Of a stretch of 64,000 nucleotides of DNA, positions 40,456 to 57,000 are shown piece after piece. The DNA lies in assembly GCA_014360905.1 (NCBI GenBank), contig JACIWW010000012.1, positions 8,011-72,010 on the forward strand. Direction: 5' to 3'. Each line of letters starts with the position of its first letter. Positions within the stretch are counted from its first letter, which is position 1. The notes below the pieces were generated by a model. The model had not been told where the DNA came from, ran no database searches, and saw nothing but the letters and a program-made list of their open reading frames with translations. Source of the stretch: Chloroflexota bacterium (lineage in GTDB: Bacteria > Chloroflexota > Anaerolineae > UBA2200). A program made the translations under genes and the position numbers.

Positions 40456-40565
40456 TTGGCACCTCCATTGGTGTGAGATTGTCGTGCAGTTATATGATAC
40501 TGTCAAATGAACCAGAGGGCAAGTGGGGGAGTGAGGCATGTTGCGTGAGGTTTTATCGCCTGGCG

Positions 40566-40925
40566 TGGAGTTCGTAGTGAGCGCTTCAGCGCTTATTGGT
40601 GCCAGGGAGTGAAATCCCTGGCTAAAAATGACAAGCCCCTTTCAGGGGCTTGCTCACGTTCAGCCGAGGAATTCACTCCCCGACCAAGGAATGCTGGGCA
40701 TGGGAGCCCAGCCTGCTGCGCCTTTGCAGAGGCGGCTCCCCCTGGGTGAGTTTGTAGTGAGCGCTTCAGCGCTTATTGGTGCCAGGGATTGAAATCCCTG
40801 GCTAAAAATGACAAGCCCCTTTCAGGGGCTTGCTCACGTTCAGCCGGGGAATTCACTCCCCGACCAAGGAATGCTGGGCATGGGAGCCCAGCCTGCTGCG
40901 CCTTTGCAGAGGCGGCTCCCATGCC
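40566..40925. repeat. ~180-bp tandem duplication (2 copies, ~98% identical) composed of REP-like hairpin modules
   Basis: 40566-40745 and 40746-40925 align with about 4 mismatches. Contains GAGCGCTTCAGCGCTT, CCAGGGATTGAAATCCCTGG, AAGCCCCTTTCAGGGGCTT and GGGAGCC...GGCTCCC. Confidence 0.85.
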
Positions 40926-41699: not shown

Positions 41700-42707
41700 A
41701 TGGACTATGAGCAATGGCTGCCGGGTCAAGGACGTGACAACACAATCCGTCGTACGGCGCGCGTCCTGGAGATCATCCAGCAGATTGCTGTAGCACCGCA
41801 TCGCTGGAGCCGACGGGCCCTGGCCGAACGCCATGAAGTCTCCGAGCGGATGATCCAGAAGGATTTAGAACTCATTCGTTACCGCTTGGGCTTGTCTCTG
41901 GTGCACGAGAACGGCACCTATTACTTCGAACGGCTTCCCCATCTGCCAACTACAACCTATTCTTTGCCCGAGGCTTTGGCACTGCTGGCGGCAGCACGGG
42001 CAGCGCAGGCTATCCCCGGCATCAATTCAGCGGAACTGGCGGCAGCAATCGCTAGGCTAGAGTCCATCTTTCCGCCGGAATTCGGGCGCTTGGTGCGTGA
42101 AGCCACGGAGAAACTGCCTCGCCAAGCGATCAAAGCACACCGTCAGATCATGCTTTCCCTATTGCACAGAGCCTTGGCCGAACGGAGACGGGTTAGGATG
42201 ATTTATGCCACCGGCTCCCGTGCAGGCGAAGTGAGCGAACGAGTGGTGGAGCCATATCACATCATGGCTTATGGCCGTTCCTGGCACCTCATTGCCTACG
42301 ACCATTGTCGTGGGGAGGTGCTCCAGTTCAAGGTGGACCGTGTGCAGGAGGCCGAGATACTGGATACGACCTACACTGTGCCCCGGGATTTTGACGTGGA
42401 TGCTTATCTGGGTGATACGTGGGGACTGATGCGTGGGGCGGCGGGGGAGCCGGAGCGGGTGGTGCTCCAGTTTGAGCCACAAGCTGGGCGATGGGTGGCA
42501 GAGGAATCGTGGCACAAAAGCCAGGAATGTGAGGTGCTGCCCGACGGCTGCGTGCAGGTAACCTTCCACGTCGGCGTGACACCGGAGATGATCAACTGGC
42601 TGCTCTACTACGGCAGTCGAGTGCAAGTTCTGGAGCCGGCCTGGCTGCGGGAGCGCGTGGCAGAGGAGCATCAGAGAGCGGCGGAGATGAACCAAGTTGG
42701 CGCTTGA
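41700..42707 (+). CDS. WYL-domain transcriptional regulator (HTH-WYL-WCX), probable regulator of the adjacent cas operon
   Basis: RBS AAAGGAGGGG. N-terminal HTH. WYL core GRSWHLIAYDHCRGEVLQFKVDRV. Confidence 0.8.
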   Translation: MDYEQWLPGQGRDNTIRRTARVLEIIQQIAVAPHRWSRRALAERHEVSERMIQKDLELIRYRLGLSLVHENGTYYFERLPHLPTTTYSLPEALALLAAARAAQAIPGINSAELAAAIARLESIFPPEFGRLVREATEKLPRQAIKAHRQIMLSLLHRALAERRRVRMIYATGSRAGEVSERVVEPYHIMAYGRSWHLIAYDHCRGEVLQFKVDRVQEAEILDTTYTVPRDFDVDAYLGDTWGLMRGAAGEPERVVLQFEPQAGRWVAEESWHKSQECEVLPDGCVQVTFHVGVTPEMINWLLYYGSRVQVLEPAWLRERVAEEHQRAAEMNQVGA

Positions 42708-42894
42708 CCAACACGGTGATACAAGCCAGTAGAGCTGTGGCTCAACGTGTGAACAGCGATTCAGGCACTGTTGTGAGGGAGTTTGTGGCTGGAGATCGCA
42801 TAGGAGATAAGCCAGAGGTGACAAAAATGGCTGGATAAACGCTGAATCCATGCGTGTATCACTACTATCCGATCCAAATATGGGGGTGCAAGTC

Positions 42895-45576
42895 ATGGAA
42901 TATAACGTTATCTATAAAGCAATTGAATGGATGTTGAATCGTGGTTGGAAGCAGCTGACAGCTAAAAGCCGCTACTTCGAGCAGAGCTTGTTTGAACATG
43001 CATTGGTAGAACTAGATGCTTTGCTTCAAATTCTGCCGATCCTCAGGTTACCTAACCATTTCAACTTATCCGAGGAAGAAGAAAGGGTGCTCATCATGTC
43101 GCTTGTCGCCCATGATGTAGGAAAGGAGCGACCTGAGTGGCAAGAATATATTTTGGGGCGGCGAGGTTTTGTGCCAGACATTGACCCTGCCTTGACCAAA
43201 AAGGTTGTGCCCGATCTTGCCCAAGCACTTGGCTTTGAGGGGCTCAATGAACAAGTGATAGCGGTTATCGAGAACTGCGTGAACCTGCATATGAGCGGTG
43301 CGCGGGGTGATGCCAATGTTGTCCAGGCTATATTACAGGGCACAAATCGGTGGTATACCCTGGCGAACATCGTGTACCATATTGACAATATCTGCTCGGC
43401 CAAAGGGGTGTTCGAGGCTATGAATGCTCTGGAGCGAAGCCCCCTGCGAAAGCACCTTGAGCCAGCATACCACCAAGTGGTTATTCGGGGCGTCTCCACG
43501 ACGATGTTACATCGGGCTGCTTTGGAAAGCTTCGTAGAAGCTGGCTGGCGACCTCTATTGCACTTCAGCAATGCCAGTTTGTACGTTTGCTCGGCTGCAC
43601 AACGCGTGCTGGAGCCTTCTGCCAGCAATATCAAGTATAAATTGTCAAATATCCTCGAAGAAGCTACAGGGCGTGAGGTAATAGAATTCATGGTCGGCAG
43701 CCCCGTTGCTAGCATCATGCCCAAGCCCGAGCTATTCGACTATCGCGAGGTACGGCAATATTTAGAAAACGCAGCGAAGAAAATCGGGCGTGTTGCTTTT
43801 GCAAAGAAGGAAGAGAATGCGCGAAAAAGTACTGTCACCACATACTTGACCTTCAAACGTTTATCCGAAGAGGGCTATGAACTTAGCAAACTAACGATTA
43901 AGCAGGCCAAAGGCTCATCGCTTTGGGATGAGATCGCCACAGCACTAAGCCCGTCCGAGCTTGCATTGCAAACGGAAAGGATCAGTGCTGCCTATCCGGA
44001 AATGATGGTCTTCAAGTTCTTCAAGGCGATGATGGAAAAGGAGATAGTCGGCAATGAAGGTGCAGAGATTGCCCGAAAGGAGTACGAAGCGGTGTTCGGG
44101 CCAGGTTCATGGGCCGCACTGCTCAGCACCTCGACTCTCATGCCTGCACAGGATATGGCCAAGACAGTAGATCTTTTTTGGAAGCTTCCAGGCCGGCGAT
44201 TTGAATTATCAGTGACCAAGGTAGAAGAACTCGAGCCGAAGGAGCGCACTGAGTTGTTGATCGATACCCTTACGAACATCGCTAATCAAGTCTATGCTGC
44301 AATAGAACAGCCACCTACCCGGGCCACGCTGGCAGGGGAGATGGCGGCAGGTTTTGTCCAAGACTTGGTGCATCCGGTGGAGAAAGTAGATCTGGCTGAG
44401 CTGGCGCGTCATCAATTGGAATTCTATGCTGCCTCCAAGCCCGTTGCTGGCAAGGAACTCAAAAACGCCCAATTCCTCTGTCCTATCTGTAACTCACCCT
44501 TTGAATCGGGCACCAAAGCGAAGGCAGATTTCATCAACAAGCCCGAGTCCCACACCAACCGCGCCATCTCTCACGGACCCTTTGGCTACGTAATGATCTG
44601 CGATACTTGCAAGTACGAGCGCATCCTACGCCAGCTTCTCTTGGGAGAAAGAGCCAAGGAGTTAATCGTGATCTTTCCCCGCATGAACATCGGACCGGGA
44701 GCAGGTGAACTACTGGTTCGCAAGGCTCAAGCCCTCTACGATAAAGCCTATGCTATCATGACAGGCGAAACTACAGACCCCGATCAGCGAATTTGGCTAG
44801 CATTCACGCCTATTATCGCCAGCAACATTCTGGATCGTGACATCTATCGCCTGACACCCGAGCAACTTGTCGATCTGCTTTCGTATCGCACAGGAGAGCA
44901 AGACCGCCGCAAGAACTGGCGTGAACTAAGCAAGGCCATCAAGGAAGCGTACGGTGAGGATTTGGAAGGAGCTAACCTGGAATGGGGTACCGAGTTCGCC
45001 ACATGGGAAGAGGCTATTGACGAGGTCATTGCTAATCGGGTTGACGATCCCACGGTCCGCCAGATTCGGGCCGAGGTTTATGGGCTCCGCCCGCAGATGA
45101 AACTGGTTTGCCAAACACCACATATGATTATGCTGCCGATGACCTATTCCATTGTCCTGGGTGATGACTCCGAGACTAACGCGGCGTTGCGGCGGGTCTT
45201 TGTAGCCCTCTTGTTGGGCCTGGCCTTGGATGCTTCAGTGGCCATCGTCCGAGACAGTGAAGAGATTGACTTCCAAGGTGGGGAAGGCGTGGCCTATGTG
45301 CCCCCGGTGGCGGCGGCAAGAGCACTCATCGGTACCAACTGGGTCCCCATTCACCAGGCCGAGCGCTGGCTTCGAGCCATTGGGCTGGCTAGCATTCTGG
45401 CTAGTGCTGGGCAGTACTCTGAGCGCTCTGGCCTTTTCGAGGTACTGACAGCACCAACCCTAGGTCACATTCTGAGACGGATCGAACAACAGAGGGAGAA
45501 GGATCAAAGAAAATTTAGCTACCAAGATATTGCTTACCTTAAAGCCTTTGGGGAGGTGATGCCTATGGTGCATTAG
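42895..45576 (+). CDS. cas10d: Cas10d (type I-D large subunit) with N-terminal HD nuclease domain and Zn-finger
   Basis: HD motifs (FEHALV..., LVAHDVGK). Cys-rich treble clef CPICNSPF...CDTCKYE. ~900 aa. Confidence 0.8.
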   Translation: MEYNVIYKAIEWMLNRGWKQLTAKSRYFEQSLFEHALVELDALLQILPILRLPNHFNLSEEEERVLIMSLVAHDVGKERPEWQEYILGRRGFVPDIDPALTKKVVPDLAQALGFEGLNEQVIAVIENCVNLHMSGARGDANVVQAILQGTNRWYTLANIVYHIDNICSAKGVFEAMNALERSPLRKHLEPAYHQVVIRGVSTTMLHRAALESFVEAGWRPLLHFSNASLYVCSAAQRVLEPSASNIKYKLSNILEEATGREVIEFMVGSPVASIMPKPELFDYREVRQYLENAAKKIGRVAFAKKEENARKSTVTTYLTFKRLSEEGYELSKLTIKQAKGSSLWDEIATALSPSELALQTERISAAYPEMMVFKFFKAMMEKEIVGNEGAEIARKEYEAVFGPGSWAALLSTSTLMPAQDMAKTVDLFWKLPGRRFELSVTKVEELEPKERTELLIDTLTNIANQVYAAIEQPPTRATLAGEMAAGFVQDLVHPVEKVDLAELARHQLEFYAASKPVAGKELKNAQFLCPICNSPFESGTKAKADFINKPESHTNRAISHGPFGYVMICDTCKYERILRQLLLGERAKELIVIFPRMNIGPGAGELLVRKAQALYDKAYAIMTGETTDPDQRIWLAFTPIIASNILDRDIYRLTPEQLVDLLSYRTGEQDRRKNWRELSKAIKEAYGEDLEGANLEWGTEFATWEEAIDEVIANRVDDPTVRQIRAEVYGLRPQMKLVCQTPHMIMLPMTYSIVLGDDSETNAALRRVFVALLLGLALDASVAIVRDSEEIDFQGGEGVAYVPPVAAARALIGTNWVPIHQAERWLRAIGLASILASAGQYSERSGLFEVLTAPTLGHILRRIEQQREKDQRKFSYQDIAYLKAFGEVMPMVH

Positions 45577-45630
45577 TGAAATTCCAGCCAATATTGACAC
45601 CGATTCAATTAGACGAGAGGAGGTCTATTC

Positions 45631-46281
45631 ATGAGAACACCGATTTTTGTGCGGGTCGAACGATTTGACTTGGAAAGTGTGGCACCCCGGATTGAAGCTA
45701 TCCGGAACGACTTCGAGCGCTACCTAGACAGCTATCCGGTAAGGGCGGCACGCAGCAAACACAGCCTCATGGGGCCAGTGGGTAAGCTCTTGCAGGAGGC
45801 CAAGACCGGCAAATGGGACGCCGAAGCCCTAACTGGCTATGCCCTCAATATCCACCTCTCCAACCCGAGGGCCAAAGGGTTCATCAGTCAGGAAGCCAGG
45901 GAGGCTCTAAAGGATGGCGTCAGCAAGTTAATGACTCTGCTGCACGAAGTCCCGCCCACCGCCCAGGACAAGATCCTGGATCGTATTGACTACGGTCTGT
46001 ACTTCATCCGCCGGGCCAAAGGGCTGGAATGGCTGGAGGACGTGCGTCGAGAATTTGTCCAATTCCTGCGGAAGCGCTACAACTCTGCTGAGGAACTGGC
46101 AAAGGCGTGGGGGGAGAAACTGGAGAACATAGGGCAGGATTTTGAGAGAATCCCCTACCCCAGCCGTCGGCTGTTTGAGGAAGCCAAGGATCAGAAGAAG
46201 AAGGACATTGCCGAGTTTGCTGAAAAAATCGCCAAACTGAAAGGCTACGAACTCGTCGAAGAAGAGGAGGAGGAACTCTAA
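45631..46281 (+). CDS. Uncharacterised 216-aa alpha-helical protein embedded between cas10d and cas7d. Possible stand-alone small-subunit (Cas11-like) or accessory protein. Acidic C-terminus EEEEEEL.
   Basis: Strong RBS GAGGAGG. 1-nt overlap (TAATG) with the cas7d start, so translationally coupled. No recognisable motif. Confidence 0.5.
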   Translation: MRTPIFVRVERFDLESVAPRIEAIRNDFERYLDSYPVRAARSKHSLMGPVGKLLQEAKTGKWDAEALTGYALNIHLSNPRAKGFISQEAREALKDGVSKLMTLLHEVPPTAQDKILDRIDYGLYFIRRAKGLEWLEDVRREFVQFLRKRYNSAEELAKAWGEKLENIGQDFERIPYPSRRLFEEAKDQKKKDIAEFAEKIAKLKGYELVEEEEEEL

Positions 46282-47219
46282 TGGATGCTTTCGCGAAAGT
46301 ACAACCATACCTGGTTGAGCGGCCACGCCCGCTCATCGGTGCTGAGACAGTGCAACTCATCGTGATGCGCGAGATCCTTGATTACACAGTTCTGCGCACC
46401 GAGGAGACACGAGAGCTTAACGTTGTGCACACACCTCTCTCAGCCAAAAACAGCAGCGAACCAGTCCGCAGAGTGGCTTTTCTGGCCACAAAGCAAAAAG
46501 CAGCTGAGTCGCGGGAATTGGAGCATCTCTTGCGCACAGCACGTAGGGCTGTGGGCTTGCCCGAGCAGGAATGCTATCTCAAGGATAACCTCTGCATGCG
46601 GTGCCCTCGCTGTGGGCTTTTCGGCGGGACCAGCGTCGTCCCAGGGCAGGAGGAACGCGCGAACATTAAACACCGCATTGAATACTCTACTGCTTTCTCG
46701 CTGATGCCCTTCGAGGACATTGCCACCCGACTCACCTTCAACGCTATCAATGATCGCAACCTCACCACTGGACAGGCACTCGGTGACCGCCACGCTGTTC
46801 TGCCAGCCACTCTATTCCCCTCAGTTGTGACCCTGAAGAGCGTAACCCAACGGGAGCTGATCCTGACGATCAAGACCCTTCTGGCCTGCAAGAGCTATGG
46901 GGCGGAAAGCCGTATCGGTGGAGACGTACGCAACAGCATCTGGGGCATGGTGGCTGGCTGGGAGGAAGTCATCACCTCACTTGAGCTGACCCTTGAACTG
47001 TTCGATGAGATGGAAAACCTCTCTCCAGCCAAAGTGCTCGAGATTATCGCGCAAAAGTACGTGCCGCTAGCGGGTAATCCTGACAAGGTAGTGGTTCTGA
47101 CGCTGGAAGAGGTTGACGCCCTGGTCACAGCCTGCGCCAGCACTGAGCTAGATCGTCCATTTATCGAGGAAGCCTATAAGGATATCGAAAAGTATCGCAG
47201 CGAGCAACTGGCTCGCTAA
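46281..47219 (+). CDS. cas7: Cas7d (Csc2) RAMP backbone subunit with zinc finger
   Basis: CMRCPRCGLFGG zinc knuckle. Gly-rich loop GAESRIGGDVRNSIWGMVAG. RBS GAGGAGGAGG. Confidence 0.8.
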   Translation: MDAFAKVQPYLVERPRPLIGAETVQLIVMREILDYTVLRTEETRELNVVHTPLSAKNSSEPVRRVAFLATKQKAAESRELEHLLRTARRAVGLPEQECYLKDNLCMRCPRCGLFGGTSVVPGQEERANIKHRIEYSTAFSLMPFEDIATRLTFNAINDRNLTTGQALGDRHAVLPATLFPSVVTLKSVTQRELILTIKTLLACKSYGAESRIGGDVRNSIWGMVAGWEEVITSLELTLELFDEMENLSPAKVLEIIAQKYVPLAGNPDKVVVLTLEEVDALVTACASTELDRPFIEEAYKDIEKYRSEQLAR

Positions 47220-47232
47220 GGAGGCCACGACT

Positions 47233-47952
47233 ATGCTTGAAGCCATCCGCTTGCAGGAGCATGGCATCCGGCTCTTTGTCTGCCGGTTATACAATCACGA
47301 CTACCTGTGGTTTTCCTCGTACGAGATCAGCAAGCTATCGGTAGCATGGCCCATCATCCACAATTACGCCCTGACCTACTCTCTGGGGGATTTCTCTTAT
47401 GGTATCTCCACCGAGACGGCGCCCCAGTACGAAGAGAACTTGGCTCACATTCCCTTGTACGCGACCCCAGCTGTAGCAACACAATGGAGTCGTACACGCA
47501 TCACCTACAACGCTGTTAACGCTCGGTCGCTGCGTACAGATGATGCGCCACGGGGGATCAACAGTCCCGACTTGGGCTGGCGTCACTACATTGACCCGGT
47601 GTTTGCTGGTGGTGATGCCCTGAAAAGCAACCTGGGATTCAGTTGTTACCTATTCACCTTTGATGGAAGCAGGCCTAAGGGCGTGACCCGGCTGGGTAAG
47701 AAGGGGGCAGCCATGCGCATTCACTGGGAGGAGATACATAACCCGCTGGCACTTTTCAAGGACGAGCCAATACGACCTACCCATCCTGTGAACCCGCTGG
47801 ATATCAGTGGGAACGCTGAGGTATACGATCCAGTACGTATCCCACCCCACTTGATCCTGCGTACAGCAGCCATTCGTGACGATTGGTTCGTCTTCGCTGG
47901 CTTTCACCGAGTACATGTGCCTAAGAGGGTGTTGGACCGATGCCGAGGGTAA
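47233..47952 (+). CDS. cas5: Cas5d (Csc1) RAMP subunit
   Basis: RBS AAGGAGG. RAMP Gly-rich loop RLGKKGAAMRI. Position after cas7d. Confidence 0.75.
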   Translation: MLEAIRLQEHGIRLFVCRLYNHDYLWFSSYEISKLSVAWPIIHNYALTYSLGDFSYGISTETAPQYEENLAHIPLYATPAVATQWSRTRITYNAVNARSLRTDDAPRGINSPDLGWRHYIDPVFAGGDALKSNLGFSCYLFTFDGSRPKGVTRLGKKGAAMRIHWEEIHNPLALFKDEPIRPTHPVNPLDISGNAEVYDPVRIPPHLILRTAAIRDDWFVFAGFHRVHVPKRVLDRCRG

Positions 47953-49961
47953 AGACCAAACCGCTAACTCTGTCTCTGGTGAAGCATCCAGAGACTCAAC
48001 ACACTCTCTATCCTCACCAAGCAGTAATGTTGGATGCTTGGGAAAAGCATGACTCTTTTCTGCTGGTCACGAAGACGGGCACGGGCAAGACCATTGGTGC
48101 ACTCCTGCCCGTGCTCAAACATCGCCAACGGGCTATCTGCGTTTACCCGACCAATGAACTGATCCGCGACCAGGTATGGAACATTGCCAAAATCGCAAAG
48201 CGGGAAGGCCTCAGCGTTTGCATTCAAATCCCAGATACCCCACCTGCGCAGTATGCTGCAGCCGACATTATCCTTGTCCACATCGACGCTGCTATGTTGG
48301 AGGCCTGGCGCAAGAAAAAGCACTTTAGCGCCAAATGGCAAGCGCTCAGGGAATTGCTAGAGGCAGACAAGCCCAAGATCATACTTACCAACCCAGACAT
48401 CCTGTTTCTCATCTTTGCCTTGCGTTACCATGCCGAGCCTTTGGCAGCTCTCCAGGCGTATGATGCCTTAATCATTGATGAGTTTCACCTCTACTCCGGT
48501 GTCGAGTTGGCTCATGCCCTATTTATGGTGCACCTCGGCCGCAACTTGGGGACATTCCGCAAGGTCGTGCTGCTCAGCGCCACCCCTGCACGAGAGGTAG
48601 ACGAGTATCTGGAGAAACTTCTTAACCCCTTCCGCATAGATGAAACCTCAACTTGCACTTATCCCGTAGTGGGTGAGCGCATAGCCGTAGAAACTGTTGA
48701 AGTCATCCCTAAGCTCGTGGGGACTGATGTAGTGGAGACGGCGGTGTCCATCATCAATGAACTACGAGAAGAGATCGTAAGCCTAAGGCAAAGCAACAAC
48801 GCCACCGACTATATTCCGGCCGTCATTGTGCTTGATTCGGTGGTGAATGCGATCCGCTTAGAAGACAGGTTAGTTGAAGAAGGCTTTGAACGGGATGCCT
48901 TGGCCATTATCCGAGGGTTGTCGACACGAGAGGTACGCGACACGAGTGGGAAGCTCCTGGCTATTGGCACCTCAGCCATTGAAGTAGGGATTGACTTTAA
49001 GTGTGACTACCTGATCTTTGAGGCAAGTGAAGCTGCTTCTTTTATGCAACGTTTTGGCCGAGTGGGTCGGCACACTCCTGGCGCGGCTTATGTGCTTTGC
49101 AGGGCCAACGTTCTGGCCGGCATTGAAAATCTACCACCTCAGGTTGAGCGTGGCGCCCTGGAGGCACGTGTCTATGATTGGTATCCTAGCCCCGAACCCA
49201 GGGCATGGTTTGTCACGACATTCTCGGGGTTGCTGACAGCTTTCACTTTGGCAGAAAACATCGTCAGCAAGGTACGTGATGACTTCCGAGCCAGCCCTGG
49301 GCAAGTAGCTATCGTGGAAGCGCACATGGAACAGATCTGTGCCAATTATGCGACTATTATCGGGGCATCCGAAAAAATCTTCAAAAGAGCCAAGTCCTAC
49401 ATACGGAAGACGCATCAAGGGGATCAGGAAAAGCGTTGGTTGCAAGTTTACCGTGACCTCAATACATTCCGCACATCGTTGCCCAGCGAATGGGTATTAG
49501 ATTTCGCTGAGCTGCAACGGCGTGGGGGTAACTGGGACAGAGCCAAATATACAGCAGATATAGCAACTCTGTTACGTCGAGCCGATGGCTTACGCTTTAA
49601 CGAAAAGATCCCACATCCAGATGGTGGAATGGGAATGCTGACGGTGAAGGGATATGGGCGGTATAAGAAAGTCTGGGTCACCCCGAGCTTCACTGATGAC
49701 CAGTGTGGAATCCCGTTCTGCACCAGCGACTTCCGAGAATTGCGCTTCATCCAGGAAGGGCACAAAACGTCAATTTCGCACGTGATGACCTTGCGTGATC
49801 ACGTCTTCGTGGTTGTACCAAAAACCACTTGGCCCGACCTGGATTGGCGCTTACCAGTCTTCGAATGTGGCCAGCATTTGATAGCCTTCGATGGGACAGC
49901 ATTGATGCTTTTGGAAATCTACAATCAGAAGTTAGCAAGATGGGGTCGGTCGAGCTCTTGA
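47940..49961 (+). CDS. cas3: Cas3' helicase (SF2, no HD domain), type I-D
   Basis: Motif I TGTGKT. DEFH box (LIIDEFH). SAT (LLSATP). Helicase C-terminal motifs FGRVGR. Confidence 0.85.
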   Translation: MPRVKTKPLTLSLVKHPETQHTLYPHQAVMLDAWEKHDSFLLVTKTGTGKTIGALLPVLKHRQRAICVYPTNELIRDQVWNIAKIAKREGLSVCIQIPDTPPAQYAAADIILVHIDAAMLEAWRKKKHFSAKWQALRELLEADKPKIILTNPDILFLIFALRYHAEPLAALQAYDALIIDEFHLYSGVELAHALFMVHLGRNLGTFRKVVLLSATPAREVDEYLEKLLNPFRIDETSTCTYPVVGERIAVETVEVIPKLVGTDVVETAVSIINELREEIVSLRQSNNATDYIPAVIVLDSVVNAIRLEDRLVEEGFERDALAIIRGLSTREVRDTSGKLLAIGTSAIEVGIDFKCDYLIFEASEAASFMQRFGRVGRHTPGAAYVLCRANVLAGIENLPPQVERGALEARVYDWYPSPEPRAWFVTTFSGLLTAFTLAENIVSKVRDDFRASPGQVAIVEAHMEQICANYATIIGASEKIFKRAKSYIRKTHQGDQEKRWLQVYRDLNTFRTSLPSEWVLDFAELQRRGGNWDRAKYTADIATLLRRADGLRFNEKIPHPDGGMGMLTVKGYGRYKKVWVTPSFTDDQCGIPFCTSDFRELRFIQEGHKTSISHVMTLRDHVFVVVPKTTWPDLDWRLPVFECGQHLIAFDGTALMLLEIYNQKLARWGRSSS

Positions 49962-50083
49962 GCCCAAAGAGTACGATTCACTTTGAGGATGCTGGGAACA
50001 AACGCTCATCCATGCACTACCTTACTGCCTATCGCTTGCACGGGATTAGAACATTGTTGAAACAAGAGTGTACTGGAGGCCCT

Positions 50084-50812
50084 ATGACCAACGATGACCA
50101 TGCACCGGCCCTATTCCAGGGCAAATATCGCGTCCCGTCTGCACGCCTAAAGGGGTGGGATTATACCTCATCCGGCCTGTATTTCGTTACCATCTGTACC
50201 AAGGAGCGCATTCCGTTCCTGGGGGACATCGTGAACGGCGAAATGCACCTTTCCTCCATCGGTGAAATCGTGGCCGAAGAATGGCGGAAAACCGAACAAA
50301 TCCGTCCCAACGTGATCCTGGATGCCTGGGTCATCATGCCCAATCACATGCACGCCATTATCGGCATTACCGCCGTTACGGTAGAGACGCCCCAACGGGA
50401 TTTGGTTTCCGTAGAGACGCCCCAACGGGATCTGGTTTCCGTAGAGACGCCCCAACGGGATCTGGTTTCCGTAGAGACGCCCCAACGGGATCTGGTTTCC
50501 GTAGAGACGCCCCAACGGGATTTGGTTTCCGTAGAGACGCCCCAACGGGGCGTCTCTACGGCGACAACGACGACAACCACGTCTGTGCCACGGTTGCCAC
50601 CCAATTCGCTGGGATCTATCATTGGGCAATTCAAATCGGTATGCACCAAACGCATCTGGGCCATGGGTTGGCACGATTTCGCCTGGCAGGCACGGTTCTA
50701 TGACCACATTATTCGCCATGAGGTCTCCCTGCAGCGCATCCGACAGTACATCGTGGAGAATCCATCCCAATGGGAACAGGACCAAAACAATCCGACAAAT
50801 CTATATATGTAA
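50084..50812 (+). CDS. REP-associated tyrosine transposase (RAYT; IS200/IS605 TnpA-like HUH Y1 enzyme) embedded in the cas operon. Contains an in-frame 5.5x 30-bp tandem repeat (VETPQRDLVS)n insertion.
   Basis: GGAGG RBS before ATG 50084. The upstream part of the 49829 ORF overlaps cas3' and has no homology. HUH motif MPNHMHAII. C-terminal FAWQARFYDHIIRHE Tyr motif. Tandem repeats at 50381-50559. Confidence 0.75.
   Translation: MTNDDHAPALFQGKYRVPSARLKGWDYTSSGLYFVTICTKERIPFLGDIVNGEMHLSSIGEIVAEEWRKTEQIRPNVILDAWVIMPNHMHAIIGITAVTVETPQRDLVSVETPQRDLVSVETPQRDLVSVETPQRDLVSVETPQRDLVSVETPQRGVSTATTTTTTSVPRLPPNSLGSIIGQFKSVCTKRIWAMGWHDFAWQARFYDHIIRHEVSLQRIRQYIVENPSQWEQDQNNPTNLYM
50381..50559 (+). repeat. 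Tandem repeat 5 x 30 bp (GTAGAGACGCCCCAACGGGAT[T/C]TGGTTTCC) ending in a perfect 13-bp-stem hairpin GTAGAGACGCCCC-AACG-GGGGCGTCTCTAC, inside the RAYT coding sequence
   Basis: Direct reading of 50381-50559. Units 1 and 5 carry T and units 2-4 carry C at position 22. Confidence 0.9.
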
Positions 50813-50898
50813 AATGGCGCTTGTGTTCCTGCGCCCTGCACAGCCATTGGATGAGGGAAAGGCACACGGCCTAATTATGAGAGAGTGGGAGTTGATGT

Positions 50899-51882
50899 AT
50901 GCACCATTTCGCGGCTCATCGCCTGCGCTTCGTGGCCGAAGTGCAGACGCCCATTGAATTGAATGAGCACCAGGGCTCGGCCATTCGCGGAGCACTGTTC
51001 AAGGTCCTGCGGCGCAATTTTTGCCTGCAGCAGCACTTGGACTCCTGCCAGCCTTGCCCTCTGCACGCTTCCTGTCCGGTCAGTTTTCTGCTGGCCACCG
51101 TAGAGAATGAAGGATGGCGCGGTGCTGACTTGCCCCGCCCCTACACCATCGAGCCGCCGCTAGGAGCCACGCCATCCTATGCCCCTGGCGAGCGCCTGGA
51201 GTTCGGCCTGACCATGTTCTCACGCGCCCTCAACCTTTTCCCCTACGTGGTGGTTGGCGTCAATGCCCTGCAACGCGAGGGAATCGGGCGCAAGGTCAAA
51301 GCCAATGGCTGGCGTCGCGGCACTTTCCTCCTGCGTGAAATCTGGGCCGAAAACCCGCTCACTGGCTATCGCCAGCCGGTCATGCGTGCGGATGACCCTC
51401 TGGTCAACGTCCCCGACATACCGATCACGCACGAACAGATTATGGACTCATGCGCCGCTCTGGAAGGGAATGGGCCCGGGGGTGAGGTCACCTTGTTCTT
51501 CCTAACTCCCACGCGTCTCATCGAACAGGGGCGCCTTTTGCACACTCCGCTTTTCCGCCCGCTGCTGCAACGCCTGTTCGAACGGCTCTCCGCCCTCGCC
51601 CGGGCGTACTCGGATACGCCGCTGGAATTGGACTTTCGCGCCTTGCTGCAAGAGGCAGAGCAGATACGCTTGGCAGCAGATCACACCTACTGGGTGGAAT
51701 GGGATAGTTACTCCACACGCCGCCAAACCCGCACGCCCATGAGCGGCTTCATGGGACGGGTTACCTATGCCGGACCTATTGAGCCATTCCTGCCCTGGTT
51801 GCTGTGGGGACAGTTCACTCACGTGGGCAAGGACGCGGTCAAAGGCAACGGCTGGTACCAACTGCTGGAGAAAGCGCTGTGA
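50899..51882 (+). CDS. cas6: Cas6 crRNA endoribonuclease
   Basis: C-terminal glycine-rich loop GKDAVKGNGWY. RAMP fold. Position before cas1. Confidence 0.8.
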   Translation: MHHFAAHRLRFVAEVQTPIELNEHQGSAIRGALFKVLRRNFCLQQHLDSCQPCPLHASCPVSFLLATVENEGWRGADLPRPYTIEPPLGATPSYAPGERLEFGLTMFSRALNLFPYVVVGVNALQREGIGRKVKANGWRRGTFLLREIWAENPLTGYRQPVMRADDPLVNVPDIPITHEQIMDSCAALEGNGPGGEVTLFFLTPTRLIEQGRLLHTPLFRPLLQRLFERLSALARAYSDTPLELDFRALLQEAEQIRLAADHTYWVEWDSYSTRRQTRTPMSGFMGRVTYAGPIEPFLPWLLWGQFTHVGKDAVKGNGWYQLLEKAL

Positions 51883-51904
51883 ACAGTCCAAAAGGAGCAC
51901 CGCA

Positions 51905-52927
51905 GTGGAGACGCAATACCTTATTGTAGATGAATTCGGCGTCTTTGTAGGCAAACACTCCGAGAGATTGCAGGTACGCAAAGGAGAGGAACTCCTGCAG
52001 GAAGCGCCGCTGTTCAACCTGGAAGGAGTCATTATCACCGGACGTGGTGTGGCTCTCTCTGCTGACGCCGTTACTGCCTGTGCCGATGCCGGCATCCCTG
52101 TGCACTTTGTCCATGTTTCGGGACGCATCAGCGCCAGCATCTTCTCTGCGGGGCTGACCGGCACCATCCAAACGCGTCGCTCACAACTGGAAGCTGCCCA
52201 CAGCCGCCATGGCGTTGCCCTAGCCAAAGCTTTTGCCCTGGGCAAAATATCGAATCAGGCTGTCTTGATCCGCTATCTGGCCAAGTACCGCAAGGGCATC
52301 AAGCCCGACCTGCACCGTGAATTAGAGCAGCGCGCCGCCGAAATCATGGCTTGTGCCGCAGAATTGCGCGCTCTGCCCGGCCGCACCGCCGAAGAAATAC
52401 GGCTCTCACTCCTGTCTATCGAGGGACATGCCGCAGAAAAATACTGGGAGGCCATACGCCTGGTTGTCCGTGTGCCCTCCGATTGGAAAGGGCGCAGCGG
52501 ACGAGGCGCGACCGACCCAGTGAACGCCGCGCTGAACTATGGCTATGGCATCTTATACAGCCAAGTGGAACGGGCCATCGTTCTGGCCGGGCTCGACCCC
52601 TACGCTGGCTTCATCCACGCCGACCGGCCAGGCAAGCCAAGCCTGGTCTTGGACTTGGTGGAAGAATTTCGCGTCCCTGTGGTTGACCGCACGGTCTTTG
52701 CTATGATCAACCGTGGCACTCAGTTGGAATTGGATGCCGACAACCTCCTGGTGCAAAAGACACGCCGCACTATTGCGGAGAATGTCCTGGCACGGCTGGA
52801 CAAAGCGGAGCGCTATGAACGTAAGAAACTGTCCTTGCGCCATATCATCCAATACCAAGCGCGGCATATCGCCACTTTCGTGCGCGGAGAGCGCGCCACG
52901 TACAAACCCTTTGTGGTCAGGTGGTGA
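51905..52927 (+). CDS. cas1: Cas1 integrase
   Basis: GTG start at 51905 with AAAGGAG RBS. N-terminus VETQYLIVDEFGVFVGKHSERLQV. Conserved ...NAALNYGYG... and E/H/D catalytic residues. Confidence 0.85.
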   Translation: METQYLIVDEFGVFVGKHSERLQVRKGEELLQEAPLFNLEGVIITGRGVALSADAVTACADAGIPVHFVHVSGRISASIFSAGLTGTIQTRRSQLEAAHSRHGVALAKAFALGKISNQAVLIRYLAKYRKGIKPDLHRELEQRAAEIMACAAELRALPGRTAEEIRLSLLSIEGHAAEKYWEAIRLVVRVPSDWKGRSGRGATDPVNAALNYGYGILYSQVERAIVLAGLDPYAGFIHADRPGKPSLVLDLVEEFRVPVVDRTVFAMINRGTQLELDADNLLVQKTRRTIAENVLARLDKAERYERKKLSLRHIIQYQARHIATFVRGERATYKPFVVRW

Positions 52928-52931
52928 GATC

Positions 52932-53195
52932 ATGCGCTGCGTTGTCGTCTATGACATCCCAGATGATCGCGTTCGCACCCGAGTGGCAGACGTGTGCCTT
53001 GATTATGGCCTGGAACGCATCCAGTTTTCTGCCTTCCAGGGTTCGTTGGAACCATTCTATCAGGAGGAACTATTGCTCAAGGCAAAAAAGAAGGTGGGCA
53101 ACAAGGAAGCCAACATCCAAGTCTTTCCCATTTGCGAAAGGGATTGGGAGAAGAGGCTAGTATGGATTCAGAAGGCAAAACAGGACAAGAAGTAG
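52932..53195 (+). CDS. cas2: Cas2
   Basis: MRCVVVYDIPDDRVRTRVADVCLDYGLERIQFSAFQ. 87 aa. Confidence 0.85.
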   Translation: MRCVVVYDIPDDRVRTRVADVCLDYGLERIQFSAFQGSLEPFYQEELLLKAKKKVGNKEANIQVFPICERDWEKRLVWIQKAKQDKK

Positions 53196-53788
53196 AAGCG
53201 GTCTCTTTTCGCGTCAGCGACCTGAAACAATATTTCTTCTGCCCACGGATCGTCTATTACCACTACTGCCTGCCCGCTGTGCGCCCGGTCATCTTCAAAA
53301 TGCTCGTGGGTCGTGAACAGGGCGAGGAGGAGCACCTACGGGAGGAGCGACGTTCGCTGAAGGCATACGGGCTGCGGCAAGGGGAACGCTTCTTCAACCT
53401 GATGCTCTCCTCTCTACGGCTTGGACTGCATGGGCGGCTTGACTTGGCGATCAAAACAGATGATAATATCAGTAGGACCCTGGAAGCGATCCCGGTGGAC
53501 TATAAACTGACGCCTGGGCGGACGGTGACGCATTTCATCCTCCAGGTGGTGGCCTACGGGATGCTGTTGGAAGAAGCGTGGAACATGCCGGTGCAGCGAG
53601 GATTTCTGTACCTGATTCCGGCACGCAGGGCGCGGGAGGTAGCGCTTACGCCCGAGTTACGTCGGCAAGTGCAGGCAGCGGTGGAGGCGATGCGGTATAT
53701 CGTGACACGCGAAGCGATGCCTGCGCCGCCCCGCCAGCAGGCGAAATGCCGCATTTGTGAGTTTCGGCGCTTTTGCAACGACGTGTGA
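53162..53788 (+). CDS. cas4: Cas4 (RecB-like nuclease with 4Cys Fe-S cluster)
   Basis: N-terminal CPRIVYY. QVVAYGMLL (QxxxY). C-terminal CRICEFRRFC. Start uncertain (ATG 53162 overlapping cas2, or track start 53132). Confidence 0.8.
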   Translation: MDSEGKTGQEVEAVSFRVSDLKQYFFCPRIVYYHYCLPAVRPVIFKMLVGREQGEEEHLREERRSLKAYGLRQGERFFNLMLSSLRLGLHGRLDLAIKTDDNISRTLEAIPVDYKLTPGRTVTHFILQVVAYGMLLEEAWNMPVQRGFLYLIPARRAREVALTPELRRQVQAAVEAMRYIVTREAMPAPPRQQAKCRICEFRRFCNDV

Positions 53789-54017: not shown

Positions 54018-57000
54018 GTTGCAGACACTCGATCCGAGGATAGGATACTGAAAGATGGGCAACAGTGCTGCAAACCTGGGGCACTGACAGAGTTGCAGAC
54101 ACTCGATCCGAGGATAGGATACTGAAAGACCATTCCGTCCACCAATGCACCTTCCACACAATCAAGTTGCAGACACTCGATCCGAGGATAGGATACTGAA
54201 AGCACCAAAGCCCTAAATGGTCTTTTATCGGCACAGTCGTTGCAGACACTCGATCCGAGGATAGGATACTGAAAGTCGCTGCCCTTGACGCCGCCCGTTG
54301 GTCTGTGCCTTGTTGCAGACACTCGATCCGAGGATAGGATACTGAAAGATACAACCTGGTCTCCACGTGCCGCCGACAAAAACCAGTTGCAGACACTCGA
54401 TCCGAGGATAGGATACTGAAAGAAAAAGTAACCGATTTATTGCGAAACGTTTTAGAGAAGTTGCAGACACTCGATCCGAGGATAGGATACTGAAAGAATG
54501 ATGCTTTTGCTGTTTCGACAACGGATACTAGCAGTTGCAGACACTCGATCCGAGGATAGGATACTGAAAGGTTTTTAACTATTGCTTTACTATAAATGGC
54601 TGAGATTGTTGCAGACACTCGATCCGAGGATAGGATACTGAAAGTTCTTACCCACAGGCGGGGGGCGGCAAGGGATTAGTGTTGCAGACACTCGATCCGA
54701 GGATAGGATACTGAAAGCGTGGCTGAGCCTAATGAGCATGGCGGTAGTGACCAGTTGCAGACACTCGATCCGAGGATAGGATACTGAAAGGCTACTGTGC
54801 CAGAAGCCTACGTTCGGGTCAGGGCCGTTGCAGACACTCGATCCGAGGATAGGATACTGAAAGGTATAAATTGTGCCCCCAGATACGCGCTTTGTATAGT
54901 GGTTGCAGACACTCGATCCGAGGATAGGATACTGAAAGTGTTGCGATGCGCTTGATTCCACAGGGCTGGCAAAAAGTTGCAGACACTCGATCCGAGGATA
55001 GGATACTGAAAGAGTCGCCAATCATGGCGTATACAATACCGCCCGTGTAGGTTGCAGACACTCGATCCGAGGATAGGATACTGAAAGGCTGAAAATTGAA
55101 GGCGACGCCGCCATCATCGTTTCAGTTGCAGACACTCGATCCGAGGATAGGATACTGAAAGCAATGCACAAAACGAAGGCCAATGGCAAAATAAACTAGT
55201 TGCAGACACTCGATCCGAGGATAGGATACTGAAAGTGAGATATCCGCCAAACTACACGCCTTGCATGAGGAAGTTGCAGACACTCGATCCGAGGATAGGA
55301 TACTGAAAGTATGTGGAAACGGCCATTGAGCATGTAGTGCCAGTAGGTTGCAGACACTCGATCCGAGGATAGGATACTGAAAGTTCGCTGAAACGCGAGT
55401 TGTACCCATTTCAGCGTGAGTTGCAGACACTCGATCCGAGGATAGGATACTGAAAGCTCGCCCTGTCCACATATGCGCATTTCTATGTATGCGTTGCAGA
55501 CACTCGATCCGAGGATAGGATACTGAAAGGAGTTGACGTTAGGCGCATGTATCAAATGGGCGTGCTAGTTGCAGACACTCGATCCGAGGATAGGATACTG
55601 AAAGAGGAGCCTCAGTGGTCGCTTCAACACCCCTGCGGTTGCAGACACTCGATCCGAGGATAGGATACTGAAAGATGCCGAACGAGCCCGCGATCTGCAG
55701 GAATGGCACATGTTGCAGACACTCGATCCGAGGATAGGATACTGAAAGTTGTGGCTGAGCCTAATGAGCATGGCGGTAGTGACCAGTTGCAGACACTCGA
55801 TCCGAGGATAGGATACTGAAAGAGTGCAGCGCGATAAGGTAATCGAGTATCTGTCCCCGAGTTGCAGACACTCGATCCGAGGATAGGATACTGAAAGTGC
55901 AAGTTCAAATGGTGCCAGTCAGGGTAAGCGCCGGTTGCAGACACTCGATCCGAGGATAGGATACTGAAAGTCATCAAAGAGATCACAAGCGACGCGGTAT
56001 ACCGCGTTGCAGACACTCGATCCGAGGATAGGATACTGAAAGTCAGCGACTGAATAAGCACGCTCTGTCCTAGGAGTTCGTTGCAGACACTCGATCCGAG
56101 GATAGGATACTGAAAGGTCGGTACTCACCCTGGAGTGGGATGAGGCTATTTATGTTGCAGACACTCGATCCGAGGATAGGATACTGAAAGCTTTTGGAGT
56201 GGTGTACCCAGGGATAGTTATCCGAGAAGTTGCAGACACTCGATCCGAGGATAGGATACTGAAAGAAACGTCCGCCACCAACTTGGCCAACGAATGGAAC
56301 ATGTTGCAGACACTCGATCCGAGGATAGGATACTGAAAGCTTGTCCAGGAATCGTTTTTGTGCAAATTTGCATCGTGTTGCAGACACTCGATCCGAGGAT
56401 AGGATACTGAAAGGTGTGCCGCCCAATAGCGTTCAGCCCACTCTCTCGATAGTTGCAGACACTCGATCCGAGGATAGGATACTGAAAGCAGGTGAAGAAG
56501 AAAAGGGCATTGCCAGGTTAGCAGCAGGTTGCAGACACTCGATCCGAGGATAGGATACTGAAAGCATCTTTCGTCCCTCCTTACCGCAATCCATCCGCTG
56601 GTTGCAGACACTCGATCCGAGGATAGGATACTGAAAGACTACTATGACTACGACGTTGGTGTAAGCGCTATACAGAGTTGCAGACACTCGATCCGAGGAT
56701 AGGATACTGAAAGGCCACGTCGCGGATTACGTTTGGCAAGTCACGCTCCCGGTTGCAGACACTCGATCCGAGGATAGGATACTGAAAGCTCAGCAAGTTC
56801 GGGAGTAAATGCCTCACGGACAGCCAGTTGCAGACACTCGATCCGAGGATAGGATACTGAAAGGCACCCGTTCAATTGTGTCCAGGACTGGTGCGTGGCG
56901 TTGCAGACACTCGATCCGAGGATAGGATACTGAAAGTTATGCGCATATGCAGTAATGCGTGGCAGATTATCCAGTTGCAGACACTCGATCCGAGGATAGG

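What the first reader, a model, noticed from the sequence alone, without database searches (positions are those of the whole stretch)
50381..50559. In-frame 30-bp tandem repeat ending in a perfect hairpin inside the RAYT gene (encodes (VETPQRDLVS)5 plus a poly-Thr tract)
Five head-to-tail 30-bp units are followed by a 29-bp palindrome GTAGAGACGCCCC-AACG-GGGGCGTCTCTAC. They lie exactly between the HUH motif and the catalytic-Tyr helix and keep the reading frame (30 bp = 10 codons). Two unit variants (T/C) alternate in the pattern 1,2,2,2,1. This looks like a hairpin-primed slippage or REP-like minisatellite that has invaded the very gene whose product processes hairpins. It extends the protein by ~70 aa relative to typical ~165-aa RAYTs and adds TATTTTTT.
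Basis: seen in the sequence. Interest (0 to 1): 0.6.

Follow-up and report, generated by a model that had tools for sequence, protein, structure and literature searches.

The report
Half-REP minisatellite inside a RAYT gene
The repeat is real, but it is a lineage-specific expansion of a hairpin (REP) that this whole family of domesticated transposase genes is already known to carry inside its coding sequence; the less expected point is that the gene sits inside a CRISPR-Cas operon.

Summary
Window 50381-50530 holds five in-frame 30-bp units. They are followed by a perfect palindrome: 13-bp stem at 50531-50559, extendable to 15 bp at 50529-50561, with a 3-nt loop AAC. It lies in a 242-aa HUH/Y1 gene (50084-50812).

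The gene belongs to TnpA_REP/RAYT subclass 2.4 (Bertels group 4). Quentin et al. [quoted passage not shown]

I found a hairpin at the same place in 59 of 67 homologous genes, with strong compensatory covariation. 31 of the 120 closest homologous proteins have tandem repeats there. Each unit here is REP left arm + loop + GGG + an 11-nt spacer. Syntenic relatives carry one REP and no array, so the array is a 150-bp lineage-specific insertion. Slippage at the hairpin apex is the likely cause (inferred). It encodes a low-confidence (probably disordered) surface loop. The feature is a new member of a known kind.

One unexpected point emerged. This RAYT and all 8 closest relatives whose neighbourhoods I inspected lie inside type I cas operons. 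In every case where the downstream gene is visible (8 of the 9 loci) it is cas6. I found no paper reporting this.

The parts
50084..50812 (+). RAYT / TnpA_REP-like HUH-Y1 gene (242 aa), subclass 2.4 / group 4
   Evidence: The ORF and its homology-supported start MTNDDH...LFQGKYR come. NCBIfam REP_Tyr_transpos scores 64 bits and Pfam Y1_Tnp 20 bits, both below their cut-offs. There are 1286 homologues. The AlphaFold core has pLDDT above 90 and the best PDB match is 4er8_A.
50345..50353 (+). HUH motif codons (H88-M89-H90 in PNHMHAII)
   Evidence: Read from the sequence. H88 and H90 are invariant in alignment A2.
50381..50530 (+). Five in-frame 30-bp units. Each is REP left arm GTAGAGACGCCCC + loop AAC + GGG + spacer ATYTGGTTTCC, and together they encode (VETPQRDLVS)x5.
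   Evidence: The array is absent from the syntenic relatives L050 and L201, which have a single REP.
50529..50561 (.). Complete 'double-foot' REP palindrome CCGTAGAGACGCCCC-AAC-GGGGCGTCTCTACGG. The core GTAG...CTAC is at 50531-50559. It encodes VETPQRGVST.
   Evidence: Covariation across 46 distinct homologous hairpins is shown.
50558..50581 (+). Imperfect 9-bp repeat (ACGACGACA x2.7) that encodes the Thr-rich tract TATTTTTT
50609..50662 (+). Helix alphaC (residues 176-193, SLGSIIGQFKSVCTKRIW). This is the first conserved element after the variable loop.
50747..50749 (+). Codon of the putative catalytic Tyr (Y222 in IRQYIVENP). It aligns with the YIxNNP motif of subclass 2.4 and with Y115 of E. 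coli TnpA_REP.
   Evidence: The sequence, alignment A2, Table 1 of PMC6006769, and the E. coli sequence recalled from my own knowledge.
41700..53788 (+). Surrounding type I-D cas operon: WYL/WCX regulator 41700-42707, cas10d 42850-45576, cas11d 45631-46281, csc2 46281-47219, csc1 47233-47952, cas3' 47940-49961, [RAYT], cas6 50899-51882, cas1 about 51920-52927, cas2 about 52930-53195, cas4 53132-53788
54018..64000 (+). CRISPR array with 135 copies of the 37-nt repeat GTTGCAGACACTCGATCCGAGGATAGGATACTGAAAG. It runs off the end of the window.

Best explanation
The flagged stretch codes for the variable beta3-alphaC surface loop of a subclass 2.4 (group 4) RAYT/TnpA_REP gene.

Like most members of that subclass, the gene carries an in-frame copy of its cognate 'double-foot' REP inside this loop. 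The REP is GTAG...CTAC with a 13-15-bp stem and a 3-nt loop. By homology with E. coli TnpA_REP, this is the kind of single-strand hairpin with a 5' GTAG guide that the encoded HUH/Y1 nuclease binds (inferred). The palindrome is kept as a nucleic-acid structure rather than as a peptide (shown by covariation).

In this lineage the REP has grown a minisatellite on its 5' side. Five 30-bp units have been inserted exactly after loop+GGG, and each unit is left arm + loop + GGG + an 11-nt spacer. Relative to relatives with a single REP this is a 150-bp in-frame insertion. The most likely origin is slipped-strand mispairing or unequal exchange between REP half-sites at the hairpin apex (inferred). Only multiples of 3 survive selection.

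The 50 extra residues form a low-confidence, probably disordered peripheral loop and leave the HUH, WQ and Tyr motifs intact. The protein is therefore probably still functional.
For: Gene identity: the fold matches 4er8_A, followed by the ISDra2 and IS608 TnpA structures. The motifs NHMH, WQ and YIVENP compare with NH[IFV]H, WQ and YIxNNP for subclass 2.4. There is no C-terminal tail, and the loop is variable.

Family-wide hairpin: 59 of 67 genes have a perfect stem of at least 8 bp, and 40 of 67 have at least 12 bp.

Covariation: 95.1% of cells are paired versus 76.2% in shuffles. 102 cells changed on both sides versus 25 (0 of 500 shuffles reach this). The covariation score is 0.551, versus at most 0.22 for slid controls (table).

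Constraint on the arms: identical 26-nt arms occur in RAYT genes whose flanking protein parts are only 48-67% identical.

Recurrent tandem repeats: 31 of 120 homologues have at least 2 copies and 12 have at least 3.

Same geometry elsewhere: repeat units begin or end at the hairpin apex in left-arm arrays (L169, L174, L127) and in right-arm arrays (L156, L159, L173).

Array-free relatives: L050 and L201 lie in the same cas context and have a single REP.

Loop and core: the loop has pLDDT 43-58 and is coil, while the core is above 90.
Against: The 11-nt spacer ATYTGGTTTCC is not explained by simple slippage on the present flanks. It matches the 5' flank only weakly (about 9 of 14 positions plus a 4-nt gap, by my inspection).

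No other copy of this REP exists in the 64-kb window. Its status as a repeated element in this genome is therefore unproven.

The hairpins used for the covariation test were chosen by requiring at least 8 perfect inner pairs, which inflates the percentage paired.

The copy number comes from a metagenome assembly and could not be checked against reads.

No biochemical data exist for any subclass 2.4 enzyme.
Confidence: 0.8

Rival explanations
1. The internal REP, and perhaps the extra left arms, is a functional cis element rather than a passenger. It could be a binding site through which the RAYT regulates or marks its own gene. Alternatively it could be an mRNA hairpin that sets stability or processing between the effector genes and the cas6-cas1-cas2-cas4 part of the operon. 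This is compatible with the best explanation for how the array arose.
For: The arms are perfectly conserved while the flanking coding sequence and the loop diverge. In the cas-embedded clade the intragenic REP is the only copy within +-5-8 kb, yet it stays perfect in 8 of 9 loci. The RNA hairpin is very stable at -29 kcal/mol.
Against: There is no direct evidence. There is no T-run, so it is not an intrinsic terminator, and there is no Rfam match. Homogenisation with a genomic REP pool could also keep the arms perfect.
Confidence: 0.25
2. One reading: a REP-like minisatellite recently invaded this particular RAYT gene.
For: The same palindrome is a dispersed element elsewhere: 118 of 125 copies lie outside RAYT genes. 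The array itself is lineage-specific.
Against: The hairpin is at the same loop in 59 of 67 homologues across phyla. 50 of those 59 are in one reading frame although two frames are open. All inspected syntenic relatives already have it.
Confidence: 0.08
3. The copy number, or the array itself, is an assembly artefact of a short-read metagenome bin.
For: The source is a MAG; the identical protein in nr is labelled 'Chloroflexota bacterium'. The internal identical stretch is about 89 bp long, which small k-mers cannot resolve (my arithmetic). The protein's 90% cluster has only one member sequence.
Against: The two T-variant units bracket three C-variant units within 120 bp, a span that 150-nt reads can cover. 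Analogous arrays occur in many independent assemblies. The frame and both flanks are intact.
Confidence: 0.1
4. The repeat is selected at the protein level, for example as a flexible, charged spacer or interaction module, and the DNA repetition is incidental.
For: The repeat is always in frame. The loops of the cas-embedded clade are rich in D/R/T repeats, for example in P0003, P0009 and P0021.
Against: The repeat units track the DNA half-palindrome, using the left arm in some homologues and the right arm in others, and not any common peptide. Loop length ranges from 23 to 104 aa. pLDDT is low. The closest relatives lack the array.
Confidence: 0.07

Closest known systems
TnpA_REP / RAYT subclass 2.4 (Quentin, Siguier, Chandler & Fichant 2018, PMC6006769), equal to RAYT group 4 (Bertels et al. 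2017, PMC5581495)
   Same: The HUH, WQ and YIxNNP-type motifs match, and homologue lengths are close to the subclass median of 194 aa. The beta3-alphaC insertion is variable and there is no tail domain. A 'double-foot' GTAG...CTAC REP is inserted in frame between HuH and Y, with short repeats in the loop. The subclass is scattered over many phyla, including the Chloroflexi class Caldilineae.
   Different: This copy has an unusually regular array of five units of a 30-bp half-REP. It has no flanking REPs. It sits inside a cas operon, a context not mentioned in either paper. The u residue of HuH is Met, and the Y motif has E in place of the first N.
E. coli TnpA_REP (RayT/YafM) with its REP, PDB 4ER8 (Messing et al. 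2012, PMC3479197)
   Same: It is the best structural match. It is an HUH/Y1 enzyme that recognises a hairpin with a 5' GTAG guide.
   Different: Sequence identity is only 17%. It belongs to subclass 2.2, where the REPs are extragenic and bulged and flank the gene. It has no loop insertion and no intragenic REP.
Rickettsia palindromic elements and other REPs inserted in frame in protein-coding genes (own knowledge: Ogata et al. 2000; also 'REPs located inside genes' in Di Nocera et al. 2013, PMC3733652)
   Same: A palindromic repeat is tolerated in frame within a surface loop of a protein.
   Different: Those elements sit in unrelated host genes and appear to be sporadic insertions. Here the host gene encodes the enzyme presumed to process that palindrome, and the site is conserved across the family.
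Transposase-derived components of CRISPR-Cas, such as Cas1 from casposases, Cas9/Cas12 from IscB/TnpB, and CAST systems (own knowledge). This is a resemblance only.
   Same: A transposon-type nuclease gene is stably embedded in and co-inherited with cas genes.
   Different: No functional link is shown here. The RAYT is a Y1 HUH enzyme, which is not known as a Cas component. PADLOC has no matching model.

Membership tests
RAYT/TnpA_REP subclass 2.4 (group 4) | HUH/Y1 fold | tested here: met
   The AlphaFold core has pLDDT above 90. Foldseek's best hit is 4er8_A with E = 1.2e-5 and probability 1.0, followed by the ISDra2, IS608 and IS200 TnpA structures.
RAYT/TnpA_REP subclass 2.4 (group 4) | Key motifs NH[IFV]H, WQ and YIxNNP (Table 1 of PMC6006769) | tested here: met
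   The window has NHMH, WQ (W201-Q202) and YIVENP. Homologues mostly have NHLH/NHIH and YIxNNP. There are two conservative deviations: M as the u residue, and E for N.
RAYT/TnpA_REP subclass 2.4 (group 4) | An insertion of variable length and sequence between beta3 and alphaC, containing short repeats | tested here: met
   Loop length is 23-104 aa in 120 homologues, and 85 aa here. 31 of the 120 have tandem repeats.
RAYT/TnpA_REP subclass 2.4 (group 4) | A REP inserted in frame within the gene, between HuH and Y | tested here: met
   The REP is at 50529-50561. 59 of 67 homologous genes have a hairpin there.
RAYT/TnpA_REP subclass 2.4 (group 4) | REP of 'long' or 'double-foot' type (5' GT[AG]G ... 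C[TC]AC 3') | tested here: met
   The REP reads GTAG-AGACGCCCC-AAC-GGGGCGTCT-CTAC. The foot is GTAG/CTAC in most homologues.
RAYT/TnpA_REP subclass 2.4 (group 4) | No conserved C-terminal tail domain after the core | tested here: met
   The protein ends 20 residues after Y222. Alignment A2 ends together with it.
RAYT/TnpA_REP subclass 2.4 (group 4) | REPs flanking the gene within about 1 kb (typical of the subclass, not strictly defining) | tested here: not met
   There is no other copy of the arm in the 64-kb window. 21 of 48 homologous loci do have outside copies. The cas-embedded relatives have none.
RAYT/TnpA_REP subclass 2.4 (group 4) | Curated profile thresholds (NCBIfam NF047646 REP_Tyr_transpos; Pfam PF01797 Y1_Tnp) | tested here: not met
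   Scores are 64.4 bits against a cut-off of 80, and 20.4 against 23. The long insert splits the match, and most of the 120 best homologues also have no precomputed PF01797 hit.
RAYT/TnpA_REP subclass 2.4 (group 4) | Sequence-specific binding and cleavage of single-stranded REP DNA | not testable with these tools
   This needs biochemistry. It has been shown only for the E. coli subclass 2.2 enzyme (PMC3479197).
REP (repetitive extragenic palindrome) family | GTAG foot, fully paired G+C-rich stem of 7-20 bp, loop of 2-5 nt | tested here: met
   The criteria are quoted from the methods of PMC6006769.
REP (repetitive extragenic palindrome) family | Many dispersed copies in the same genome | not testable with these tools
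   Only 64 kb of the source genome is available. In other genomes the identical palindrome is multi-copy, for example on at least 10 contigs in Longimicrobium and at least 7 sites in UASB14.
Cas protein / CRISPR-associated gene | Recurrent, conserved placement inside cas operons across divergent loci | tested here: met
   9 of the 9 closest RAYT loci inspected are in type I cas operons. RAYT-cas6 gaps are -4 to +108 nt where cas6 is visible. Cas6 identity falls to 30% while the RAYT core stays at 65% or more. The sample is small and comes from one clade.
Cas protein / CRISPR-associated gene | A demonstrated or predicted role in adaptation, crRNA processing or interference | not tested
   No experiment or model exists. 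PADLOC has no matching profile.

The most novel reading that the evidence does not exclude
This RAYT, with its internal REP as the only local copy, may be a co-inherited functional part of type I CRISPR-Cas operons in Chloroflexota, in effect a 'Cas-associated RAYT', rather than a passenger. It always sits just upstream of cas6 and the adaptation genes. One possible role is as a single-strand DNA nuclease feeding or editing spacer acquisition. Another is control of the operon through its own hairpin, with the half-REP array tuning that interaction. The association itself is shown for 9 of 9 close relatives. Any function is conjecture.
Probability: 0.3. Interest if true: 0.75.

Novelty: new member of a known kind. 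Interest (0 to 1): 0.35.

Why it matters
For the flagged feature itself the value is modest. It is a very clean example of how a REP hairpin inside a coding loop seeds in-frame minisatellites. The apex-anchored unit boundaries seen here and in homologues give a concrete, testable picture of how the 'highly variable' subclass 2.4 loop is generated.

The covariation analysis adds something to the published view. The internal REP is maintained as a structure across phyla, and its arms are conserved more strongly than the protein around it. That argues it is more than a tolerated insertion.

The potentially important by-product is the conserved RAYT-cas6 linkage. If it is functional, it would give a long-sought cellular role to at least one clade of domesticated Y1 transposases and add a new accessory nuclease to CRISPR-Cas.

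Tried and rejected
1. The look-up of encoding contigs for the window protein returned nothing on record. I therefore got no extra flanks, no sample identity and no read-level check.

None of the 200 loci held at that point matches the window by blastn. The source genome was not recovered, so its REP copy number remains unknown.

3. L035 has the same AAC loop, but it is an unrelated AT-rich context.

4. I looked for strain variants with another copy number. The 90% cluster has one member sequence and the next hit is 61% identical, so copy-number variation cannot be assessed.

5. I considered an intrinsic terminator or a known RNA family. No terminator-like site and no Rfam match were found.

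6. Folding the whole array gave z = -1.36. Only the terminal hairpin is significant, and a single unit does not fold.

7. I tried to explain the 11-nt spacer by microhomology slippage. An ACGG...ACGG event would give 17-nt units, not 30. Similarity of the spacer to the 5' flank is weak. I left its origin unexplained.

8. A sequence search of PDB chains found no hit by sequence. The relationship shows only at the fold level.

9. I searched the literature for a RAYT-CRISPR link and found nothing relevant. Shmakov et al. 2018 (CRISPR-linked genes) is not in the held library, so prior mention cannot be excluded.

Full report
**1. Observation**

Tandem Repeats Finder reports 50381-50549 with period 30, 5.6 copies, 98% matches and score 324. 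The repeat finder shows six in-register copies at 30-nt spacing. It also shows that every left arm (CC)GTAGAGACGCCCC is complementary to the single right arm GGGGCGTCTCTAC(GG) at 50547-50561.

The terminal copy forms a perfect 15-bp stem with a 3-nt loop AAC at 50529-50561. Alone, the hairpin folds at -19 kcal/mol as DNA and -29.3 kcal/mol as RNA, and no shuffle out of 200 is as stable. A single 30-bp unit has no significant structure. The T,C,C,C,T pattern of the one variable base is correct.

The array is in frame in the ORF 50084-50812, which reads ...PNHMHAIIGITAVT-(VETPQRDLVS)5-VETPQRGVST-ATTTTTTS-VPRLPPNSLGSIIGQFKS....

**2. The gene**

The 242-aa product scores below the curated cut-offs of NCBIfam REP_Tyr_transpos (64 bits against 80) and Pfam Y1_Tnp (20.4 against 23). 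It nevertheless has 1286 homologues with E of 1e-5 or better, many labelled 'REP element-mobilizing transposase RayT'.

An AlphaFold model built from a 49-sequence alignment has a confident core (pLDDT above 90). Its best PDB match is 4er8_A, E. coli TnpA_REP bound to a REP hairpin, followed by the ISDra2, IS608 and IS200 TnpA structures. H88, H90, W201 and Q202 are invariant in the alignment, Y222 is nearly invariant (at least 90%), and all are present in the window protein.

The array lies after the HUH strand and before helix alphaC (residues 176-193). The catalytic Tyr is on a later helix. The inserted region (residues 96-175) is modelled as coil with pLDDT 43-58.

**3. This is a known family trait**

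Quentin, Siguier, Chandler and Fichant (2018, PMC6006769) defined TnpA_Y1 subclass 2.4, which equals RAYT group 4 of Bertels et al. 2017. Its features are:
- motifs NH[IFV]H, WQ and YIxNNP;
- a median length of 194 aa and no tail domain;
[quoted passage not shown] S6);
- 'double foot' REPs (5' GT[AG]G ... C[TC]AC 3');
[quoted passage not shown] S10).

The authors regarded the loop as peripheral and probably harmless. Group 4 is reported as common in Cyanobacteria, Chlorobia and Caldilineae. The window gene meets every one of these features, so the finding is a new member of a known kind.

**4. What my comparisons add**

*Hairpin frequency.* In 120 close homologous proteins the loop almost always encodes VETPRRGVST, VETFRRNVST, VETSRRDVST or VETARRAVST (95 of 120 match the motif). 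These peptides are translations of GTAGAGACGnnnn-loop-nnnnCGTCTCTAC. At the DNA level, 59 of 67 RAYT genes recovered from metagenome and genome loci have a perfect stem of at least 8 bp in the HUH-alphaC segment. 40 of the 67 have at least 12 bp.

*Covariation.* On 46 distinct hairpins aligned from the foot, 95.1% of cells are paired, against 76.2% after shuffling. 102 cells carry a change on both sides, against 25 (0 of 500 shuffles reach this). The covariation score is 0.551, against at most 0.22 for slid controls. Pairs 10-12 each use four pair types. One caveat applies: the hairpins were located by requiring at least 8 perfect inner pairs, which biases the percentage paired. It does not bias the diversity of compensated pairs.

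*Arms versus protein.* The arms are more conserved than the protein. Seven RAYT genes whose N- and C-terminal parts are only 48-67% identical to the window protein carry the identical 26 arm nucleotides. The syntenic relative L050 shares the whole stem but not the loop.

*Reading frame.* A GTAG-footed palindrome leaves two frames open. 50 of the 59 hairpins use one frame (GTA GAG...) and 8 use the other (xGT AGA GAC...). Apart from one miscentred call (L181, foot not GTAG), none uses the frame in which TAG is a stop. The strong bias argues for inheritance from a common ancestor rather than repeated fresh invasions.

The phyla include Chloroflexota, Patescibacteria, Acidobacteriota, Cyanobacteria and Gemmatimonadota. 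118 sites lie outside RAYT genes and 7 lie inside one, at the same N|C junction.

**5. The minisatellite**

Each unit is left arm (13 nt) + loop AAC + GGG (the first three bases of the right arm) + an 11-nt spacer ATYTGGTTTCC. Relative to the array-free relatives L050 (...ITASTI-VETPRRGVST-MTTK...) and L201 (...IAP-VETPRRGVST-SRRGV...), the window has 150 extra bp inserted between VETPQR and GVST. That position is at the loop/right-arm boundary of the REP.

The same geometry recurs in other assemblies:
- Left-arm arrays ending in a complete REP: L169 (21 bp x5), L174 (18 bp x4) and L127 (15 bp x3).
- Mirror-image right-arm arrays: L156, L159 and L173.
- At the protein level: P0006, P0039, P0063, P0050, P0033, P0114 and P0102.

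Overall, 31 of 120 homologues have at least 2 tandem copies in the loop and 12 have at least 3. The window's array is among the longest and most regular.

In L174 and L127 a 3-nt microhomology (TTG or GGG) between the 5' flank of the left arm and the start of the right arm explains the unit precisely. This is what slipped-strand mispairing at a stalled hairpin would produce. For the window the 11-nt spacer does not fit such a one-step event, and its origin is unexplained. An older, diverged duplication followed by recent expansion of the C-variant unit is possible. That slippage produced the array is an inference, not a demonstration.

**6. How it most likely works**

Shown:
- The gene is intact and conserved.
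- The palindrome is a conserved nucleic-acid structure.
- The array is lineage-specific, in frame, and encodes a low-confidence loop.

Inferred from the E. coli paradigm (PDB 4ER8, PMC3479197): the encoded HUH/Y1 enzyme recognises this hairpin with its GTAG foot on single-stranded DNA.

I consider the array a tolerated by-product of hairpin-driven slippage in a permissive loop. The REP itself may be functional in cis, but this is unproven. It is not an intrinsic terminator and matches no Rfam family.

**7. Context: the unexpected part**

The RAYT gene sits, co-oriented, inside a type I-D cas operon. The order is WYL/WCX regulator, cas10d, cas11d, csc2, csc1, cas3', RAYT, cas6, cas1, cas2, cas4. 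A 135-repeat CRISPR array follows.

Every one of the closest homologues whose neighbourhood I could inspect is also in a type I cas operon. These are P0003, P0005, P0007, P0010, P0011, P0016, P0018 and P0042, which with the window make 9 of 9. In every case where the downstream gene is visible, it is cas6. Gaps run from -4 to +108 nt. The upstream gene differs (cas5-like or cas3), as does the subtype.

Three somewhat more distant homologues (P0020, P0024, P0035) are not near cas genes. They do have REP hairpins flanking the gene, whereas the cas-embedded copies have none within +-5-8 kb.

Between the same pairs of loci the RAYT core is 65-94% identical, while Cas6 is 30-92% identical. The two measures are correlated (Spearman 0.75 over 28 non-independent pairs). 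The RAYT-cas6 pair therefore co-diverges, and the RAYT is the more constrained partner.

I found no paper describing this, and PADLOC has no matching profile. The association is shown for a small, related sample. Any function in CRISPR immunity is conjecture.

**8. Verdict**

The flagged feature is an especially regular example of a published property of subclass 2.4 RAYTs, so I rate it a new member of a known kind with modest interest. The most novel reading not excluded is that this clade of RAYTs, with its internal REP, is a functional accessory of type I CRISPR-Cas. I give that a probability of about 0.3, and it would be of high interest if true.

Noticed in passing
window 41700-53788 (RAYT at 50084-50812); loci L050, L201, L202, L203, L204/L205, L208, L209, L210: The RAYT gene is embedded in a type I-D cas operon between cas3' and cas6. 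All 8 closest homologues whose neighbourhoods I inspected are likewise inside type I cas operons, directly upstream of cas6 wherever the downstream gene is visible. Gaps are -4 to +108 nt. The RAYT core (65-94% identity) is more conserved than Cas6 (30-92%), and the two identities are correlated. Three more distant homologues are not near cas genes.
   Followed up: partly
window 3705-3729, 4848-4874, 6384-6414, 29187-29213: A second, unrelated hairpin family, CCCCTCTCCTAC-AGC-GTAGGAGAGGGG, has GTAG next to the loop rather than at the foot. It lies inside a longer composite repeat with further hairpins on both sides (GCGTGGGCAACAGCCCACGC ... GAGCGCTGAAGCGCT). There are four copies in the window, and it looks like a MITE/BIME-like element.
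   Followed up: no
window 40559-40920: A 180-bp unit is repeated twice (97% identical) just upstream of the WYL/WCX regulator gene that heads the cas operon. It contains motifs (GAGCGCTTCAGCGCT and a GGGGCTT hairpin) that resemble the composite repeat noted above.
   Followed up: no
window 54018-64000: A very large CRISPR array has 135 copies of a 37-nt repeat with 33-40-nt spacers and runs off the end of the window. No spacer or repeat resembles the REP (13-mer, up to 2 mismatches).
   Followed up: partly
loci L001-L120 (genome-contig scan): The identical 26-nt REP arms GTAGAGACGCCCC/GGGGCGTCTCTAC occur in genomes of very distant phyla, including Patescibacteria, Cyanobacteria, Acidobacteriota, Gemmatimonadota and Chloroflexota. 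They are multi-copy in some, for example Longimicrobium SMAG_U2535, UASB14 and Chloroflexales ZM16-3. Loops are mostly GGC or GCC. This suggests either horizontal spread of RAYT-REP pairs or very strong constraint on the arms.
   Followed up: partly
loci L206 (5955, 7185), L207 (6784, 6856), L211 (5685); proteins P0020, P0040: RAYT genes not embedded in cas operons are flanked by REPs of more than one inner-stem variant, for example ...ACGCCCC..., ...ACGTGCC..., ...ACGACCC... and ...ACGTTCC.... Some gene calls run through an upstream REP and so give spurious N-terminal VETFRRNVST extensions.
   Followed up: no
window 51767-51882: The longest cas1 ORF begins at 51767 and so overlaps the end of cas6 (51882) by 116 nt. 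Homology to Cas1 begins near residue 52, so the true start is probably about 51920.
   Followed up: no
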